From positions 1 to 37,858 of the forward strand of contig NW_021835865.1 in NCBI RefSeq assembly GCF_006345805.1: a stretch of DNA of 37,858 bases. The letters are read 5' to 3'. A program made the translations under genes and the position numbers. The notes under the pieces are model-generated. The model saw only the letters and a list, made by a program, of their open reading frames with translations, was not told the origin of the DNA and searched no databases. Source of the DNA: Octopus sinensis. Lineage: Eukaryota. Positions 12,869 through 21,521 of this stretch are shown in pieces; positions within the stretch are counted from its first letter, which is position 1, and each line of letters starts with the position of its first letter.

Positions 12869-15309
12869 ACCTCTCTCTTTTCTTTTATTACCAGCCTCAG
12901 CTTTAGAAAAGTTTTTCAGTAGTTGCTATGTAACTTAACTGCTCTGTTGCCCTTCTCTCACTGACTCCCTCTTCTCCCTTCGTCTCTCTCTCTCTCTCTC
13001 CGTCTCCTTCTTCTTTCTCTCTCTCTTTCTTTATATCTCTCTCTTTCTCTCTCTTTCTCCTCTCCTATCATCTTCCCATCTCTCCTCTTCCCTTACAGCC
13101 AGTTTGTCTTATAATACATCTTGGCTCCTTTTAGTCGACTCTACGACTGGTTCTTGTCTTTGGAATTAATCTATTTGCTCAACTGGATCTCCATATCAAC
13201 CTTTCACCTTTGCCCTAATTACATTGCACTCTTTCCCATTATGACCTCGCAGAGCAGAGAAATTATTCATGGCAGAATCGGTAGAGCGCCAGACCCCAAA
13301 AGGATGTAGTATTTTGTTGCGTTACACCAAATTCAGAGTTCGAACACCGTCGCAGTCGACTTTAACTTTCTGGGACCATAAAATAAGTAGAAATAAGCTG
13401 GGAACAATCACTGAAGGCAAAGCCATTAGAGTGTGTATGTGGTTATAGAATGTCTTCATATATGTAAGTTGTTGCAACGTTGTTTATATCAAAAATGGAA
13501 ATGCAGTATAAGTTGATTGTCTTAGGGAAACGGAAGAATTCATGCGAAAAATAATGTTAAATGCACGATAACAACGGGAAATGTAAAGGAATTGTGGATG
13601 ATGTGCAAAAAAAAGGATAGAAAAATAACATACCATCCTTTCTTCTTGTGAAAATGTACACGACAGGGCAATGGAGAGCTTCATGGATAAGTAGATAGAA
13701 TTTTTAGCAAAGCCAGTAACGGCTACATTTTTGCTATAAACTGGACATTTGTTTAAAGCTGAATGGTTTAACAAAATAGAAACTGTAACACATAAAGCAC
13801 GAGAGATCATAAAAGGTAAGTAAAAAAAAATACTGATGGATGATTTTGAAACTGGAGTTAAGTGTTTGTATTGAGATGCATCATAAATTGCACCTTAAAA
13901 GTGTTCACGTACCGTATTTTCCGGTATTAAAACATCGTTGCCACTTTTCCAAATCCTGCTGCATTTCTCATGGAATGTTTGGTCCTCCAAAGTTGTCTTG
14001 GTGATAGATGTGCCGAGCTTCCATTTTTGCCCGTAAATTTTTGCCTGAAAAACCCGATTTGTATGCTGGATAATAAGTTACTTTTGTCACCGAAAAAATG
14101 TTTTTACACAACATAAGGTTTCTATATACAGGAACTACAAACAATTTAGGGAAATATCGTCATTTGCGAATTGTTAATGATACAAGCGACCTTCCAGACC
14201 AGTCACAAGAATAAGTTACTGAAATCGATGTATTAAATTCAGAATCTGTTTAGTGCTACTGGAAAATTTTCAACATCAATGGCAGAAGACGTGTATCTCC
14301 TTCCCGCCATTACCACTTCACACAAAACAAACAAAAGCTTATAACCGCCATCTTCCTATGTTAAAAATCAATAATCATGAAAACTGTTAGTAACTATAAT
14401 TTAAATGCAAAATATTATTAGAATGAACTAAACATCATTATCGAATTTATTGTAAATATGTTGCCACAACACTACACAACAATATTAGTGGAAGTGGCGA
14501 ACCATAATGTAATCAAATTATGTTTTTCAAACTGAAGCTTCGTTTAATCAGATAAACTTTTTTCTTCAAAATATAAAGATGCATTATATTCAATACATAA
14601 ATGTCATGCTCAAGTTGTTTAACACCGTCTCAGAGGTGGCTGAGTGCACCTATGGTCAAAGGTGTGTGAGTCATAACTATCTCACCTTTCTTGGCACAAA
14701 AGGTGGATAGTATAACCTAGACTACTTTAGTCAATGTATCCTTCCTCGTTTATGATGTTATGGTAGATTTGGCAGCTATTTTTAGCAGATTGAATAACCG
14801 TGTATACGTTCCCTTATCGCTTTGCCTTATTCTGGTATATCGTACACATTTATATATATATATATCTGTGTGCGTATGTGTGTGTGTGTGTTTGTGTGTT
14901 TGTGTGTGTGTGTGTTGTGTGTGTGTGTGTGTGTACGAGAAATTTTAATGTATAGTACAATTGTCTTTTTTGTGCTCGTTTATGAGCTAAGGAGTAATAA
15001 AAAAGTTGTTGTACAAGATAAAAATTTCAGTTGTCAGTACTTTACATTCGAAAACTAAATCGTGCTTACAGCGATTTATAAGACTTGGATGGGATACATT
15101 ATTTTATTAAAAAATTCAAATAATAAAAAAAATAATAAAAGATAATAAAAAAGTATAATAAAAATAAGATATAAAATGTACATGAAGTAAGATATAAGAA
15201 CATGAAAACCGTGTGTGCGTGTGTAGATACATGTATTCAAGGAGGAATAAATAGAAATCAGTAGTACGAGATATCATGAAGGTAAAAGTCACCATCATCG
15301 TGTCCAATG

Positions 15310-16775
15310 AGGCTTAGCTACCTTGCGTAGAGAACGCTATCAAAGGATACGAGGCGGTGGCAGGGGAAAAAGTTAGAAAGGACGAGTCCATCGGCTTGCA
15401 TCGCGGCACCTGGAGGAACAAGTCGATATCGTTCAGTGTCGTGGATCACTGGACAGATAGTCCTGTTAAATTGCTTGGAGTTTGGTTTGGACCGGACTCC
15501 CAGGTGGAGAAAAATTGGAGCGAAGTTGCAGACAAGGTGGAGGCCCTAGTCCGGACTTGGTCCGGACAGGCTCTGTCCATGAAAGGAAGGGTGGAGGCGG
15601 TACAGGTGCCTATTGCATTTGTAATTACCTACCACCTAACCGTTGTCTCTTGGCCCGACTCATAGTTAAACAAGTTGGAACGCCTTCTCTTCCGCTTATT
15701 GTGGAAAGGAGGAAAGCCAATTGCGAGGCGCTCCGTCTGCTGCAAGGGTGGGTTAGGGATGCCCTGTCTAATGATGCGCAGACATGCGCTGAGGCTGAGA
15801 CATCTCTGGCGCTACACTGACGGTGACAAGGTGTGGAATTCGCTGGCGGAGGGATTCTTTCCGCGACCAGCTTCTTTGGAAAGATTCAAACCCAGTTTTA
15901 TTAATAGACGTAATTTGACAGAATGGCAAAAGGAGTGTCGACAGCCACTCGTGCTAATCCACAAGATGGGCAAGGCCGGCAGTGGGAATACCACCTCGGT
16001 TTTGTATAAAGGGCTGGTAGAGTTTTAAAATGATGACGTCCTACAAGGGGCTCTGGGGTTCAACGAGAACCAACTTGCCAACCTGTTCCAAAAAACTTTT
16101 AGGCCGGGGTATTTGGATAATTACCAAAAATCCCTGACCTGGTAGTACTACAGGAACGCTTTGCCGGTTCGCGATAAGTTAGCCAGGCACGGAATGTCAG
16201 TGCCAACGGCATGTCCAAGATGTGGGCTGGAGTATGGAACCGTCTGGCACGCTTTTGTACAGTACCGGAAACTTTCAGGCTTGATAATTTACGTTGAACA
16301 CGTGTTGTCACGCCTAGGCAGAGTACAGCTATCAGCTGAGTCTATAGTAAAGATTGTGCCGCCAACTGGACTCTCAAAGGAGGGTGAGGCATGTTTTCTC
16401 TGTCCAGTTGCAGTGTTGAAAGAGTGTGTGTGGAAGACCAGATTGCAAGGACTTGTGACGGGATCCTTCATCTCTGGCCCTAGTTTGCAGTCATACTTTA
16501 GATATCATCTGAAGAGCAAAATAAGGCTGGAGAAGAGATGCCAGTCGCGAGGTGTGTCCGAGAAAAGATGGAAGGCTGTGGTAAGAAAGGTGGCTGCAAG
16601 TGACCCTGCTTAGTCCGTATGGGAAAAAGAAAAGGTATAGTCGCCGGGCTTTTCAGCCAATCAGGTTTAATCCCCGCCCTCCATTTAAAAACTAAGTATC
16701 ATATGAACGCATAATAACAATAATCGTGTGTATTGTCCTGTTTTGTCCCCTCTATGTACGATATTAATTATCATA
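15310..16775 (+). mobile_element. L1/Tx1-clade non-LTR retrotransposon, 5'-truncated ORF2 (end of RT domain to CCHC zinc finger) plus 3' UTR
   Basis: VKLLGVWFG, LSMKGRV, GGLGMP, LPVRDKL...CPRCG...TVWHAF motifs across ORFs 15357-15665, 15675-16028 and 16161-16613, with stops and a frameshift. Confidence 0.85.
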
Positions 16776-16785
16776 AAAATTCATC

Positions 16786-16865
16786 TCTAGCGGACGAGAT
16801 GTCCAGTACTGAAGAGAGGCAGAAATAGCCCGAAACCAGGCTGGTCTGCTAGTCCCGTCGCTAGA
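16786..16865 (+). ncRNA. type I hammerhead ribozyme (predicted)
   Basis: Core CTGAAGA 16809-16815, stem II G(A)GGC/GCCC, GAAA 16832-16835, stem III ACCA/TGGT, GTC site 16844-16846, extended stem I TCTAGC(G)GACG...AGTA / TGCT...CGTCGCTAGA. Confidence 0.75.
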
Positions 16866-16882
16866 AGGCGGTAGGAGTTCAC

Positions 16883-17069
16883 TACATACATACATACATA
16901 CATACATACATACATACATACACATACACACATACATACATACATACATACATGAATACATACATACATACATACATACATACATACATACATACATACA
17001 TACATACATACATACATGATACATACATACATACATACACATACATACATACATACATACATACATACA

Positions 17070-17100
<31 letters not shown>
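16883..17100. repeat. (TACA)n microsatellite
   Basis: Directly visible. Confidence 0.97.
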
Positions 17101-17189
17101 GCAGACATGCATGTAAATGCATATTGAAAGTACCTGAAATTGAAACCATATAATAGTGAAAGTATTAATAGAAATGTTATTGTTTAACT

Positions 17190-17395
17190 TTTGACAGGTA
17201 ATACGGAAACCGAGATAAGAGATTGCTCCGGGCTCGCATTAAGCGAGAAATTGATTTTTTTTTACCCATGACACTGCATGAACCCTAATTAAAGCATGTG
17301 TAAAATTTGAATGAAATCCGTTGGGTAGTTCCCGAGTTTTAGTTGTGCACACATACAAACACGCAGACAGACACACATTCTCAGTTTTACTATAT
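17190..17395 (+). mobile_element. non-autonomous Helitron/Helentron-like fragment
   Basis: GTAAAATTTGAATGAAATCCGTTGGGTAGTT followed by a (CAGA/CA) tract and TTTTACTATATA resembles such elements; recognised from memory only. Confidence 0.35.
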
Positions 17396-17562
17396 ATATA
17401 TATAATAGTAATATAAATATATGCATATATACATACATATATGTACATACCTGCGTCTATATGTATATATATACATGCATATATGGGTACAGGACATCAA
17501 AAAGACGTTGAACACAATGAGAAACGAAAACATAAAAACAAAAACATAGAAACGAGACATAT

Positions 17563-17992
17563 AGGCGCAGGAGTGGCTATAGGCGCAGGAGTGGCTGTGT
17601 GGTAAGTAGCTTGCTTACCAACCACATGGTTCCGGGTTCAGTCCCACTGCGTGGCATCTTGGGCAAGTGTTTTCTGCTATAGCCCCGGGCCGACCAATGC
17701 CTTGTGAGTGGATTTGGTAGACGGAAACTGAAAGAAGCCTGTCGTATATATGTATATATATATATGTGTTTGTTTGTGTGTCTGTGTTTGTTCCCCTAGC
17801 ATTGCTTGACAACCGATGCTGGTGTGTTTACGTCCCCGTCACTTAGCGGTTCGGCAAAAAAGAGACCGATAGAATAAGTACTGGGCTTACAAAGAATAAG
17901 TCCTGGGTTCGAGTTGCTCGATTAAAGGCGGTGCTCCAGCATGGCCGCAGTCAAATGACTGAAACAAGTAAAAGAGAAAAAGAGAAAAGAGA
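17563..17992 (+). mobile_element. SINE family A with duplicated 18-nt head
   Basis: AGGCGCAGGAGTGGCT occurs twice (17563, 17581); body matches 5058-5470. Confidence 0.9.
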
Positions 17993-18370
17993 TATAACAT
18001 AGGGAATATTCCCCTTCTTCAGTTGTCCCTGTTTCATCAACTCCGCGTTTCCTGTATCCATATATGCATGTATATATACATATATATGTAGGTATGTACA
18101 TATATGTATGTATATATGCATATATTTATATATTATTTATATTATTATATGATCGAACGCCACGCATCCTTTTCCAAGTAAACGCATTGAGTCGAAACAG
18201 GGGCAGCTGAAGAAGGGGAATGTTCCTTGTGCTGGTTGTCTTGTACTCTGTTTTTTCGATGTTAAAAAAAATGGTCCGTTTCCTTGTTTGGTTTTATGTT
18301 TTCGTTTCTCGTTGTGTTCTACGTTTATTTGTGGTGTCCTGTACTCATATATGCATGTATATATACATAT

Positions 18371-18542
18371 AGGCGCAGGAGTGGCTGTGTGGTAAGTAGC
18401 TTGCTAACCAACCACATAGTTCCGGGTTCAGTCCCACTGCGTGGCATCTTGGGCAAGTGTCTTCTGCTATATCCCCGGGCCGACCAATGCCTTGTGAGTG
18501 GATTTGGTAGACGGAAACTGAAAGAAGCCTGTCGTATATATG

Positions 18543-18573
<31 letters not shown>

Positions 18574-18790
18574 GTGTGTGTTTGTCCCCCTAGTATTGCT
18601 TGACAACCGATGCTGGTGTGTTTACGTCCCCGTCACTTAGTGGTTCGGCAAAAGAGACCGATAGAATAAGTACTGGGCTTACAAAGAATAAGTCCCGGGG
18701 TCGATTTGCTCGACTAAAGGCGGTGCTCCAGCATGGCCACAGTCAAAAATGACTGAAACAAGTAAAAGAGTAAAAAAAAAAAAAGAGAGT
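18371..18790 (+). mobile_element. SINE family A
   Basis: Near-identical to 5058-5470. Confidence 0.9.
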
Positions 18791-18839
18791 ATGGACATAT
18801 ATGTATGTATGTATGTATATGTTTTATTTATTAAATTGT

Positions 18840-18877
<38 letters not shown>

Positions 18878-18879
18878 TC

Positions 18880-19315
18880 ATCCAAAATGTCTTGCAAACA
18901 ACTTGCACATGCAAGTGCTACCAGTTAAATGCTCCGTATACCGGAAGCTAGCAAGTGTATGGGGTCATCAGGAGAGAATGCGCGCCGTTTCGGGGCCTAC
19001 CTCTCGACGGCCTCAATGCGCACCGGCCCCCCCTCACTGATATGAGGCCCCGCTTGCTAGATCAGCTGGTTATGAAGAACTCAATATACTTCTAGCCATC
19101 GCTCATCGTCTCTTTTTAACCAAACCCAGTGGCTAGCCTTCTCCACTGTAGATTGGATATCAGTCATGGTGGTATTGACTTTACGATGAGTTAGGCCTAA
19201 CGATAACAACAGTCGTCTCACGCTGTGTAAATCTTTTCCTATATCGTATATTGAGCTTGATAATTTTCCCATGTGGCACGCTTGAACAACTATGAAGAGA
19301 TGTTCACATGAATCA
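18880..19315 (-). mobile_element. HERO-like (RLE-type) non-LTR retrotransposon 3' end
   Basis: ORF 19081-19272 ends ...LLSLG...VEKASHWVWLKRDDERW, resembling the HERO restriction-like endonuclease C-terminus; followed by a GC-rich structured 3' UTR. Confidence 0.65.
18961..19011 (-). ncRNA. non-circularly permuted hammerhead-like motif
   Basis: Minus strand GCCGTC-GAGAG-GTAGGCCCC-GAAACGGC-GCGCATT-CTCTC-CTGATGA-CCCC; stems I and III perfect, stem II not canonical. Confidence 0.6.
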
Positions 19316-19449
19316 ATTGTTTTATTTATTTATTTATTTATTTATTTATTTTGTTAACCCAGATATAGAAAGTATAGAAAGTATTTATCCACCAATGCGG
19401 TGTCGAGCACTCATTGTCAGTGTTCGATATTAGCGTGCAAGTTCACACG

Positions 19450-19490
<41 letters not shown>

Positions 19491-19748
19491 CCGTGAGTAA
19501 GCATGTTGACTACGTGTATTTTTTTTCTATGTAGTCGGCACATTATAGTATGAAAAGCTGTTAAATCCCATTACTACGCTTCCTTTATTCGTACACGACA
19601 ATCTCATTCTATTCATTTCCAAGCAATGTGTATATTTTCTAAACGTATGGCAGTAACCGGAATTGCATCTCTTTACGTAGAAAAGTAACTAATTTTCGAC
19701 AAAATAAATACGAAGCTGAAGCAACTACAGGGGACAGTATTTCTATAT

Positions 19749-19980
19749 CTATTTCTTTACTACCCACAAGGGGCTAAACACAGAGAGGACAAACAAGGAC
19801 AGACAAACGGATTAAGTCGATTATATCGATCCCAGTGCATAACTGGTACTTAATTTATCGACCGCGAAAGGATGAAAGGCAAAGTCCACCTCGGCGGAAT
19901 TTGAACTCAGAACGTAACGGCAGACGAAATACAGCTACGCATTTCGCCCGGCGTGCTAACGTTTCTGCCAGCTCGCCGCC
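19749..19980 (-). mobile_element. SINE family B, full length
   Basis: Matches 4695-4926. Confidence 0.88.
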
Positions 19981-20249
19981 TTTGGGACAGTAATATCGAA
20001 GTAGATCCATCGAAGTGTATGCCCGAGTATGACCACAGTCCGATGGCTGAAGCAATGAAAAGAATAAAGAATGATAGAATATAAGGATGGAAGTCATAAT
20101 GTGAACACTGACGTAAAGTCTGATAAAACTTCCTTATATAAGCATACAAACGCAAGCACACCGCACATATGTCTATGTATGGATATCAAAAAGTTTGAGA
20201 TATATTTTTGCAGCGTGATCAACAAACCACATCACGCAAATATATATAT

Positions 20250-20830
20250 AGGCGCAGGAGTGGCTGTGTGATAGTACTGGTAGGAACGTCAGCACGCCGG
20301 GGAAAATGCGTAGCCGTATTTCTTCTGCCGTTAGGTTCTGAGTTCAAATTCCGCTGAGGTCGACTTTGCCTTTCGTCCTTTCGGGGTCGATACATTAAGT
20401 ACCAGTTACGCACTGGAGTCGATACATTAAGTACCAGTTACGCACTGGGGTCGATACATTAAGTACCAGTTACGCACTGGGGTCGATACATTAAGTACCA
20501 GTTACGCACTGGGGTCGATACATTAAGTACCAGTTACGCACTGGGGTCGATACATTAAGTACCAGTTACGCACTGGAGTCGATGTAATCGACTTAACCCC
20601 ATTGTCTGTCATTGTTTGTCCCTTCTATGTTTAGCCCCTTGTGGGTAATAAAGAAGCTTGCTTCCCAACCAAACGGTTCCGAGTTCAGTCCCACTGCGTG
20701 GCACCTTGGGCAAGTGTCTTCTACTATAGCCTCGTCCCGACCAAAACTTTGTGAGTGGAGTTGGTAGACGGAAACTGAAAGAAGCTTGGCCGCAGTCAAA
20801 TGACTGAAACAAGTAAGAGAATAACAGAAT
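20250..20830 (+). mobile_element. nested SINE: family B (20281-20653) inserted into the head of a family A copy
   Basis: A head at 20250-20270 resumes at 20655 (AGCTTGCTTCCCAACC); the A copy lacks its middle section. Confidence 0.8.
20383..20583 (+). repeat. 32-bp minisatellite, 6 units
   Basis: GG(G/A)GTCGATACATTAAGTACCAGTTACGCACT repeated; GTCGA at 20386, 20418, 20450, 20482, 20514, 20546 and 20578. Confidence 0.95.
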
Positions 20831-21521
20831 AAAATAGTATATATACATGTGTGTGTGTGTGTATTCTATATATATGTATATATATCTACCTATCTACCTA
20901 TCTATCTATCTATCTATTTATCTATCTGTCTGTCTGTCTGTCTGTATGTATGTATGTATGTATGTATGTATGTATGTATGTATGTATGTATTCCTGTATG
21001 TGTGCCTGTATGTCTGTATGTATGTATGTATGTATGTATAACGCATATTGTTGCAACTCAATTAGGGTGGAAAGGGCACCTAAACTGTCTGACATACGAT
21101 AAAAATTTCGCTTCTTCTGTGCTTCCATATAACTTTCCAGTGTTCTTTTATAATAGAGATCATAAGTAAACTTCTTTTTGTCGAATTAGGGTGGAGCTGG
21201 GAATTTGACACAAGTCTATGCTTTTACAAACCTTGGCTTTTATGTAACACCATATATTGGGAAGTAGTGGGAGTCGAATTTCACTTTATTAAAACAACTG
21301 TTCGGCACAACAGCGTCATCAGATACGTGGTTTATTCTAATTCTTTGGATAAAGGCAAGCAGACTTATACGATTAAGATAGAGAGAGGTAGCTTTCTGTT
21401 TAAGCATCCACAACAATGGATTCGTCATTTTTTGAGGGGTGTTTTGGTTGCTATATCTAGCAGCTCATTGGACCATGCGCGTACGTGTGTGTAGAAACTT
21501 ACATATATATTATAAGATAGC

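What the first reader, a model, noticed from the sequence alone, without database searches (positions are those of the whole stretch)
16786..16865. Apparently intact extended type I hammerhead ribozyme right after an L1/Tx1-like 3' UTR
Seen: all core nucleotides are present (CTGAAGA, GAAA, GTC; predicted cut after C16846). Stem II is closed by G-C, stem III is the near-palindrome ACCAG-G-CTGGT, and stem I is long with an internal loop that could contact loop II (AGAAATA). Established: type I hammerheads are typical of Penelope-like elements and retrozymes, and palindromic stem III is associated with dimeric cleavage. Inference: either an adjacent Penelope/retrozyme remnant or, more unusually, a 3' processing signal of the Tx1-like LINE. 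It is co-oriented with the LINE, ~170 nt after the ORF2 stop and just before a (TACA)n tract.
Basis: partly seen in the sequence, partly recalled or inferred. Interest (0 to 1): 0.7.

Follow-up and report, generated by a model that had tools for sequence, protein, structure and literature searches.

The report
Jumping gene lands before hammerhead repeat
A worn piece of a very common repeat carrying a hammerhead motif (predicted to be a self-cutting RNA) sits right behind the tail of a dead jumping gene, likely because this family of jumping genes tends to insert at that spot in the repeat, not because it carries the ribozyme itself.

Summary
The type I hammerhead motif is real: intact core, predicted cut after C16846, chance 0.037 per shuffled window. 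It is not part of the LINE. In 4 of 4 DNA runs, contig depth over the motif is 20-44 times that over the LINE 3' end, and most motif-bearing contigs have other, mutually complementary flanks. So 16782-16880 is a fragment of an abundant retrozyme-like repeat. The LINE (decayed L1-clade, probably Tx1, 15288-16779) ends in an A-tail 65 nt before the cut site. The same tail-to-repeat junction recurs in at least two other diverged loci. The best reading is Tx1-type target preference for a retrozyme, a target I did not find in print. Against it: few bridging contigs, and no upstream repeat arm or clear duplication at this copy's 5' end. This copy carries a rare stem I mismatch and is predicted to misfold. 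Use of the ribozyme for LINE 3' processing is unsupported. The scan noted the same arrangement earlier on other DNA (e1-8669911, e1-8663643).

The parts
15288..16613 (+). 5'-truncated, decayed ORF2 of an L1-clade (probably Tx1) LINE: end of RT, zinc knuckle, C-terminus; 4 in-frame stops, no frameshift
   Evidence: tblastn of P0001: 50% over 433 aa in one frame, starting just after the YADD motif; zf-RVT E 0.00019, below the curated cut-off; relative P0002 best matches human L1 ORF2p, E 1e-72
16614..16779 (+). LINE 3' UTR ending in a short A-tail (16775-16779); some paralogs have 4 more letters there that complete an AATAAA signal
   Evidence: sequence; insertion behind 16774 in 3 contigs of X1 and 1 each of X2, X6, X12
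16780..16783 (+). Junction between the LINE tail and the hammerhead repeat
   Evidence: family contigs switch to a different upstream flank at 16781-16783: loose ends in 51+20 contigs of X1 and 16+52 of X12
16782..16880 (+). 99-nt fragment of an abundant hammerhead-bearing, retrozyme-like repeat; the family continues on both sides in sequence that this locus lacks
   Evidence: depth 20-44 times that of the LINE end; loose ends before 16782 and behind 16879-16883
16786..16865 (+). Extended type I hammerhead: distal stem I 16786-16796/16856-16865, internal loop, proximal stem I 16803-16808/16847-16852
16809..16846 (+). Catalytic core with stem II (16816-16831, bulge at 16817, 7-nt loop) and near-palindromic stem III (16835-16845); predicted cut after 16846
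   Evidence: variants of 10% or more at core positions only at N7 and H17
16883..17099 (+). (TACA)n microsatellite that replaces the rest of the repeat
   Evidence: family loose ends behind 16880 differ from it
15257..15275 (+). Weak look-alike of 16783-16803 (15 of 21 columns), 12 nt before the LINE's 5' end; possible worn target duplication, inconclusive
   Evidence: 41 of 1236 background bins score as well

Best explanation
The hammerhead motif belongs to an abundant separate repeat, likely a non-LTR retrozyme, and a Tx1-like LINE likely inserted into one copy of it at a preferred site 65 nt upstream of the predicted cut site. Shown: the motif, the separate family with its own flanks, the LINE's A-tail at the junction, and recurrence of the junction in other diverged loci. 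Inferred: in the parent repeat the hammerhead cuts multimeric transcripts into monomers that close into self-paired circles, probably helped by dimerisation through the palindromic stem III. Also inferred: the LINE endonuclease nicks the repeat DNA near 16781 and primes reverse transcription from the A-tail. Later decay removed the LINE's 5' part with the upstream repeat arm, and the repeat beyond 16880. This copy is probably a poor or dead ribozyme, and the LINE does not need it.
For: Depth over the motif against the LINE end: 28,420 vs 652 (X1) and 25,079 vs 1,262 (X12); 30,750 vs 1,426 (X2) and 2,888 vs 111 (X6) (a rough ratio, not a copy number). 12 of the 16 listed pieces start at 16778-16783. 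The family's upstream and downstream loose ends share a 15-nt exact reverse complement (read by eye from table 7), as in self-paired retrozyme RNA (PMC7229834). Three contigs hold two same-strand copies of the motif (joints that go back: 2 in X1; 1 in X2). Recurrent junction: X1 record 16697-16874 with 24 other letters and 4 gaps (a paralog, 31 or more letters on both sides); a joint 16675 to 16775 with 65 letters on its shorter side in X1 and X2; shorter hints in X1 record 1 and X12 records 9 and 10. Tx1 families are known to prefer other repeats as targets (PMC4494074, passages). Related ORF2 loci show no type I hammerhead on the sense strand, 0 of 65.
Against: Only 1 of the 16 listed pieces (of 880) formally bridges the junction, and the share of LINE ends that join this repeat could not be counted: 190 loose-end rows were not shown. 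At this locus the upstream arm of the repeat is absent and the only duplication-like match is weak, so the insertion anatomy is shown on one side only. The full repeat unit, its length and its tandem structure were not recovered. Tx1 rather than another L1-clade lineage rests on recalled resemblance, with no tree. Cleavage is untested.
Confidence: 0.62

Rival explanations
1. One old chance insertion made a LINE-repeat chimera that was later multiplied as a unit (3' transduction or segmental duplication); there is no target preference.
For: This copy lacks the upstream arm and a clear duplication; few bridging contigs were listed; the repeat is abundant, so one chance hit is easy.
Against: The junction contigs differ in their UTRs: one skips 16676-16774 yet resumes at the A-tail, another fits only from 16687. 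That suits separate insertions by related subfamilies. RNA-level transduction through an active hammerhead would tend to lose everything after 16846, but copies run to 16874-16880.
Confidence: 0.2
2. The hammerhead is an integral 3' processing signal of the LINE and defines the end of its RNA.
For: Same strand, 173 nt after the stop; the junction recurs.
Against: The A-tail lies before the motif. The great majority of motif depth has non-LINE flanks. A copy made from cut RNA would end at 16846 and lose the 3' strand of stem I, yet the window and the bridging copies run past it. No type I motif on the sense strand of 65 related ORF2 loci (distant relatives, 63 of them from one assembly).
Confidence: 0.07
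3. The host repeat is the terminal repeat (pLTR) of an autonomous Penelope-like element rather than a protein-free retrozyme; the LINE link is as in the best reading.
For: Penelope pLTRs carry type I hammerheads with small palindromic helix III (PMC4209133, passages); animal retrozymes are proposed to derive from them (bioRxiv 10.64898/2026.07.22.740005, part 1 of 5).
Against: The architecture is canonical (6-bp proximal helix I, 4-bp helix II, extended stem I) rather than the minimal metazoan Penelope type (helix II 7-8 bp, short helix I). No RT or GIY-YIG Pfam hit in 33 of 33 ORFs of 75 aa or more over 13000-21500, apart from the LINE's zf-RVT.
Confidence: 0.1
4. The motif is a chance match.
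For: Rfam score far below gathering; this copy's predicted fold is not the hammerhead.
Against: Descriptor chance 0.037 per window; the motif is the centre of a multicopy family with compatible variation.
Confidence: 0.01

Closest known systems
Metazoan non-LTR retrozymes (coral, mussel, axolotl; PMC7229834, parts 2-3 of 6 read)
   Same: Canonical type I hammerhead in an abundant repeat, self-complementary flanks, short palindromic helix III suited to dimer cleavage
   Different: Only a 99-nt worn fragment here; unit length, tandem arrays and circular RNA not established; bulged base in helix II; directly preceded by a LINE tail
Tx1 families with preference for other repeats: Xenopus Tx1 in Tx1D, crocodilian Tx1-Mar in Mariner-N4_AMi, Tx1-8_Crp and Tx1-4_AMi in LTR elements, Tx1-9_AMi in Harbinger elements (PMC4494074, passages)
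   Same: L1-clade LINE whose A-tailed 3' end recurs at one position inside another repeat family
   Different: The apparent target is a ribozyme-bearing repeat, not a DNA transposon, LTR element, snRNA gene or microsatellite; the 20% flank criterion was not measured
Penelope-like element pLTR hammerheads (PMC4209133, passages)
   Same: Type I topology, G10.1-C11.1 pair, palindromic helix III
   Different: Not the minimal type; no Penelope ORF nearby
R2 elements with HDV-like ribozymes (PMC3774820, start of abstract in a search listing)
   Same: Site-specific non-LTR element next to a self-cleaving RNA in a co-transcribed target
   Different: There the ribozyme is the element's own and frees the 5' end; here it belongs to the target and lies beyond the 3' end, with no evidence of use

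Membership tests
Type I hammerhead ribozyme | Conserved core C3-U4-G5-A6-N7-G8-A9, G12-A13-A14-A15.1, U16.1-H17 | tested here: met
Type I hammerhead ribozyme | Three helices, helix I open, G10.1-C11.1 closing pair | tested here: met
   pairs listed; one mismatch in helix I (rare in the family) and one bulge in helix II
Type I hammerhead ribozyme | Rfam gathering score | tested here: not met
   HH9 13.8 bits against 52; this lowers membership of that Rfam family, not of the ribozyme class
Type I hammerhead ribozyme | Active fold accessible in this copy | tested here: inconclusive
   about 10 kcal/mol above the ensemble and 9.3 per ribozyme as a dimer; the energy model omits core and loop-loop contacts
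Type I hammerhead ribozyme | Loop 1-loop 2 tertiary contact and self-cleavage | not testable with these tools
   needs a cleavage assay
Non-LTR retrozyme | Abundant repeat carrying a canonical type I hammerhead | tested here: met
   depth and loose ends in 4 of 4 runs laid
Non-LTR retrozyme | Tandem units of a few hundred bp without an ORF | tested here: inconclusive
   3 contigs with two same-strand copies; unit not recovered
Non-LTR retrozyme | Expressed as self-paired linear and circular RNA | not tested
   no RNA run was laid; complementary flanks only suggest self-pairing
Penelope-like element pLTR | Minimal hammerhead (long helix II, short helix I) | tested here: not met
   against PMC4209133 passages
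Penelope-like element pLTR | Adjacent RT plus GIY-YIG ORF | tested here: not met
   this locus only
L1 clade LINE | APE endonuclease-RT-zinc knuckle ORF2 closest to L1 | tested here: met
   relatives carry PF03372, PF00078, PF13966; P0002 vs L1 ORF2p E 1e-72, vs R2 E 6e-29
Tx1 clade | Placement in the Tx1 clade by RT phylogeny | not tested
   no named Tx1 reference was returned; the label is recalled resemblance
Target-specific Tx1 family | Same repeat in more than 20% of flanks (criterion of PMC4494074) | tested here: inconclusive
   junction recurs, share not countable
Target-specific Tx1 family | Target split by the insertion, with a duplication at both ends | tested here: inconclusive
   upstream arm absent; weak match, 41 of 1236 bins as good

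The most novel reading that the evidence does not exclude
This Tx1 lineage inserts just upstream of a retrozyme hammerhead in order to borrow it: read-through RNA is cut at the hammerhead and ends in about 65 nt of target-matching sequence that guides priming at the next retrozyme copy, while in tandem arrays the previous unit's hammerhead frees the 5' end. The LINE would need no terminator of its own, a mirror image of R2 with the ribozyme supplied by the host repeat.
Probability: 0.12. Interest if true: 0.7.

Novelty: new variant of a known kind. Interest (0 to 1): 0.4.

Why it matters
The hammerhead itself is an ordinary new member of the animal retrozyme class. The point of interest is the apparent target: a LINE parasitising a ribozyme-bearing, non-autonomous retroelement adds a new class to the known Tx1 targets, and I did not find it in print (Repbase and most subscription journals are not covered). 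It offers a direct test of whether co-transcription with a target and ribozyme-made RNA ends help site-specific insertion. This worn locus is a poor substrate for that test; young copies would be needed.

Tried and rejected
No whole genome is held for this window, so copies could not be counted or aligned. Exact-pattern scans for the motif found nothing in metagenome or viral contigs. No second copy of the motif or of the LINE in the window. Family flank motifs are absent from the window or at chance level. Protein search with the last ORF alone found nothing among longer proteins. Related ORF2 loci: 63 in one assembly, 2 in metagenomes, none in viral contigs; no Rfam ribozyme in the 8 of 65 scanned; one minus-strand descriptor hit in 65, taken as chance. 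No RNA holder was listed and no RNA run was laid, so expression is untested. Earlier-findings searches by sequence, near place and relatives were blank. The absence of variants at the 11 invariant core positions is consistent with selection but weak: about 1 in 4 by chance for 11 variant sites in 99 (hand estimate). The miRNA-type Rfam hits over (TACA)n are low-complexity artefacts. The O. vulgaris repeat paper has no mention of hammerhead, ribozyme or retrozyme in the main text or its one held supplement.

Full report
Observation. The sequence at 16786-16865 holds a complete type I hammerhead layout on the + strand. The core positions are C3-A9 at 16809-16815, G12-A15.1 at 16832-16835, and U16.1-C17 at 16845-16846. 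Helix II closes with G16816-C16831, has a bulged A16817 and three further G-C pairs. Helix III has four pairs and a 3-nt loop as a monomer and is near-palindromic, with a self-duplex of -16.6 kcal/mol. Helix I has a 6-position proximal part, an internal loop and a distal part of about 10 pairs. A descriptor finds only this site in the window, against 0.037 hits per locally shuffled window in 300 shuffles. Rfam aligns it to Hammerhead_HH9 at 13.8 bits, E 0.56, far below the gathering score of 52. The copy is not pristine. C16804 faces A16851, where 79-89% of family depth has G. The lowest-energy fold pairs helix II and III strands differently; the hammerhead fold lies about 10 kcal/mol above the monomer ensemble and 9.3 kcal/mol per ribozyme above the best dimer. 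These energies omit tertiary contacts, so they suggest, not show, poor activity.

The LINE. A single reading frame from 15288 to 16613 with four internal stops matches P0001 at 50% over 433 aa, starting just after the YADD motif. Full-length relatives carry endonuclease, RT and zf-RVT domains, and P0002 is closest to human L1 ORF2p among solved structures (E 1e-72, against 6e-29 for R2). The element is thus L1-clade. The Tx1 label is a recalled resemblance that I could not test by a tree, since no named reference came back. The stop is followed by a 3' UTR that ends in five A's at 16775-16779. Several paralogs carry four extra letters behind 16774 that complete an AATAAA signal (3 contigs in X1, 1 each in X2, X6 and X12). 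The LINE therefore ends before the hammerhead, 65 nt upstream of the predicted cut.

Whose hammerhead is it? No assembly was available, so I laid public contigs on the stretch: four DNA runs from four organism labels on 16290-16889 and two of them again on 16640-16889, out of 24 listed. Summed depth over the motif exceeds that over the LINE's last UTR bases by 44-fold (X1), 20-fold (X12), 22-fold (X2) and 26-fold (X6). The tool warns that this is no copy number, so I use it as a rough ratio only. Family contigs leave the window's sequence at 16781-16783 for a common different upstream flank (51+20 contigs in X1, 16+52 in X12) and at 16879-16883 for a common different downstream flank. These two flanks share a 15-nt exact reverse complement (read by eye from table 7), so the hammerhead caps a longer self-paired element. 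Three contigs hold two same-strand copies, a weak sign of tandem units. One search lists 11 variant positions of 10% or more in 16782-16880. None is at an invariant core base, two are at the tolerant N7 and H17, five keep or restore a stem pair, three are unpaired, and one (16818, 8-10%) breaks a pair. This is compatible with a functional family but not significant alone. These features match metazoan non-LTR retrozymes: canonical type I hammerheads in abundant short repeats expressed as self-paired circles, some cutting well only as dimers (PMC7229834, parts 2-3 of 6 read). They match the minimal Penelope type less well (PMC4209133, passages), and no Penelope ORF lies nearby (33 of 33 ORFs).

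Why is the LINE in front of it? The junction is not unique to this locus. One X1 contig spans 16697-16874 with 24 other letters and 4 gaps, so it is another locus with the same tail-to-repeat joint. A second contig type, in X1 and X2, follows the UTR to 16675 and resumes at the A-tail at 16775, with 65 letters on its shorter side and unknown letters between. Three further pieces cross the junction by fewer than 31 letters and do not count formally (X1 record 1, X12 records 9 and 10). Different UTRs meeting the repeat at the same place suit separate insertions at a preferred site, a known habit of Tx1 families, several of which target other transposons (PMC4494074, passages). Against this, only 16 of 880 pieces and 12 of 202 loose-end rows were shown, so the share of LINE ends that join this repeat is unknown. 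At this locus the upstream arm is missing. The only duplication-like match, 15257-15275, has 15 of 21 identical columns, sits 12 nt from the LINE's start, and is equalled by 41 of 1236 background bins. A later deletion would explain this, but a single chimera that was multiplied afterwards is not excluded.

Does the LINE use the ribozyme? Nothing here shows it. Copies made from RNA cut at 16846 would end there, yet the window and bridging contigs run to 16874-16880. Distant ORF2 relatives show no sense-strand type I motif in 65 of 65 loci (63 come from one assembly, so this is weak). A subtler use remains open: read-through RNA cut by the target's hammerhead would end in target-matching sequence, and co-transcription with a target is said to strengthen site-specific insertion (PMC4494074, passage). 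I give this 0.12.

Comparison and novelty. The ribozyme is a new, worn member of a known class. A Tx1-type preference for a retrozyme was not found in print: no paper held both 'Tx1' and 'retrozyme', one unrelated pipeline paper held hammerhead, Tx1 and retrotransposon (listing only), and searches listed nothing on it by title or abstract start. A 2026 O. vulgaris repeat annotation mentions no ribozymes in its text or held supplement (PMC13282606). Supplements of the bioRxiv retrozyme paper, of which I read part 1 of 5, are closed and could bear on family identity. That the host is an octopus is my inference from recalled SINE types and from earlier notes on this genome. Earlier notes of this scan describe the same arrangement in another genome and for other retrozyme families in this one. 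I had the target hypothesis in my notes before seeing them, and they are not independent evidence.

Verdict. Observation confirmed; interpretation partly supported. The best reading is a decayed Tx1-like LINE inserted at a preferred site of a retrozyme-like repeat (confidence 0.62). Interest 0.4.

Noticed in passing
window 5848-7300, also 3737-3992, 25344-25426 (-), 28095-28177: Tandem array of tRNA-Leu(TAA) genes, 170-bp period, 8.6 units with 9 genes, plus 4 more copies elsewhere.
   Followed up: no
L001-L063 (contigs of one genome contigs record labelled as an Arenicella MAG): 63 loci of L1-clade ORF2 relatives spaced about 6.4-6.9 kb apart in the same orientation: head-to-tail LINE arrays, probably animal host DNA inside a bacterial bin.
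   Followed up: partly
L008 6550-6627 (similar in L004, L027): A long inverted repeat around a T-rich loop in the spacer between tandem LINE units, upstream of the next unit's first ORF.
   Followed up: no
window 16835-16845: The family has at least two loop III lengths: many contigs carry one extra base in the palindromic loop (loose ends behind 16839 and 16840).
   Followed up: partly
window 16690-16760: Contig depth rises over the last part of the UTR compared with 16670-16689, suggesting a 3' segment shared among related LINE subfamilies.
   Followed up: no
window 17560-17980 and 18370-18790: Two near-identical copies of a roughly 400-bp SINE-like repeat in the same orientation downstream of the locus (by eye).
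   Followed up: no
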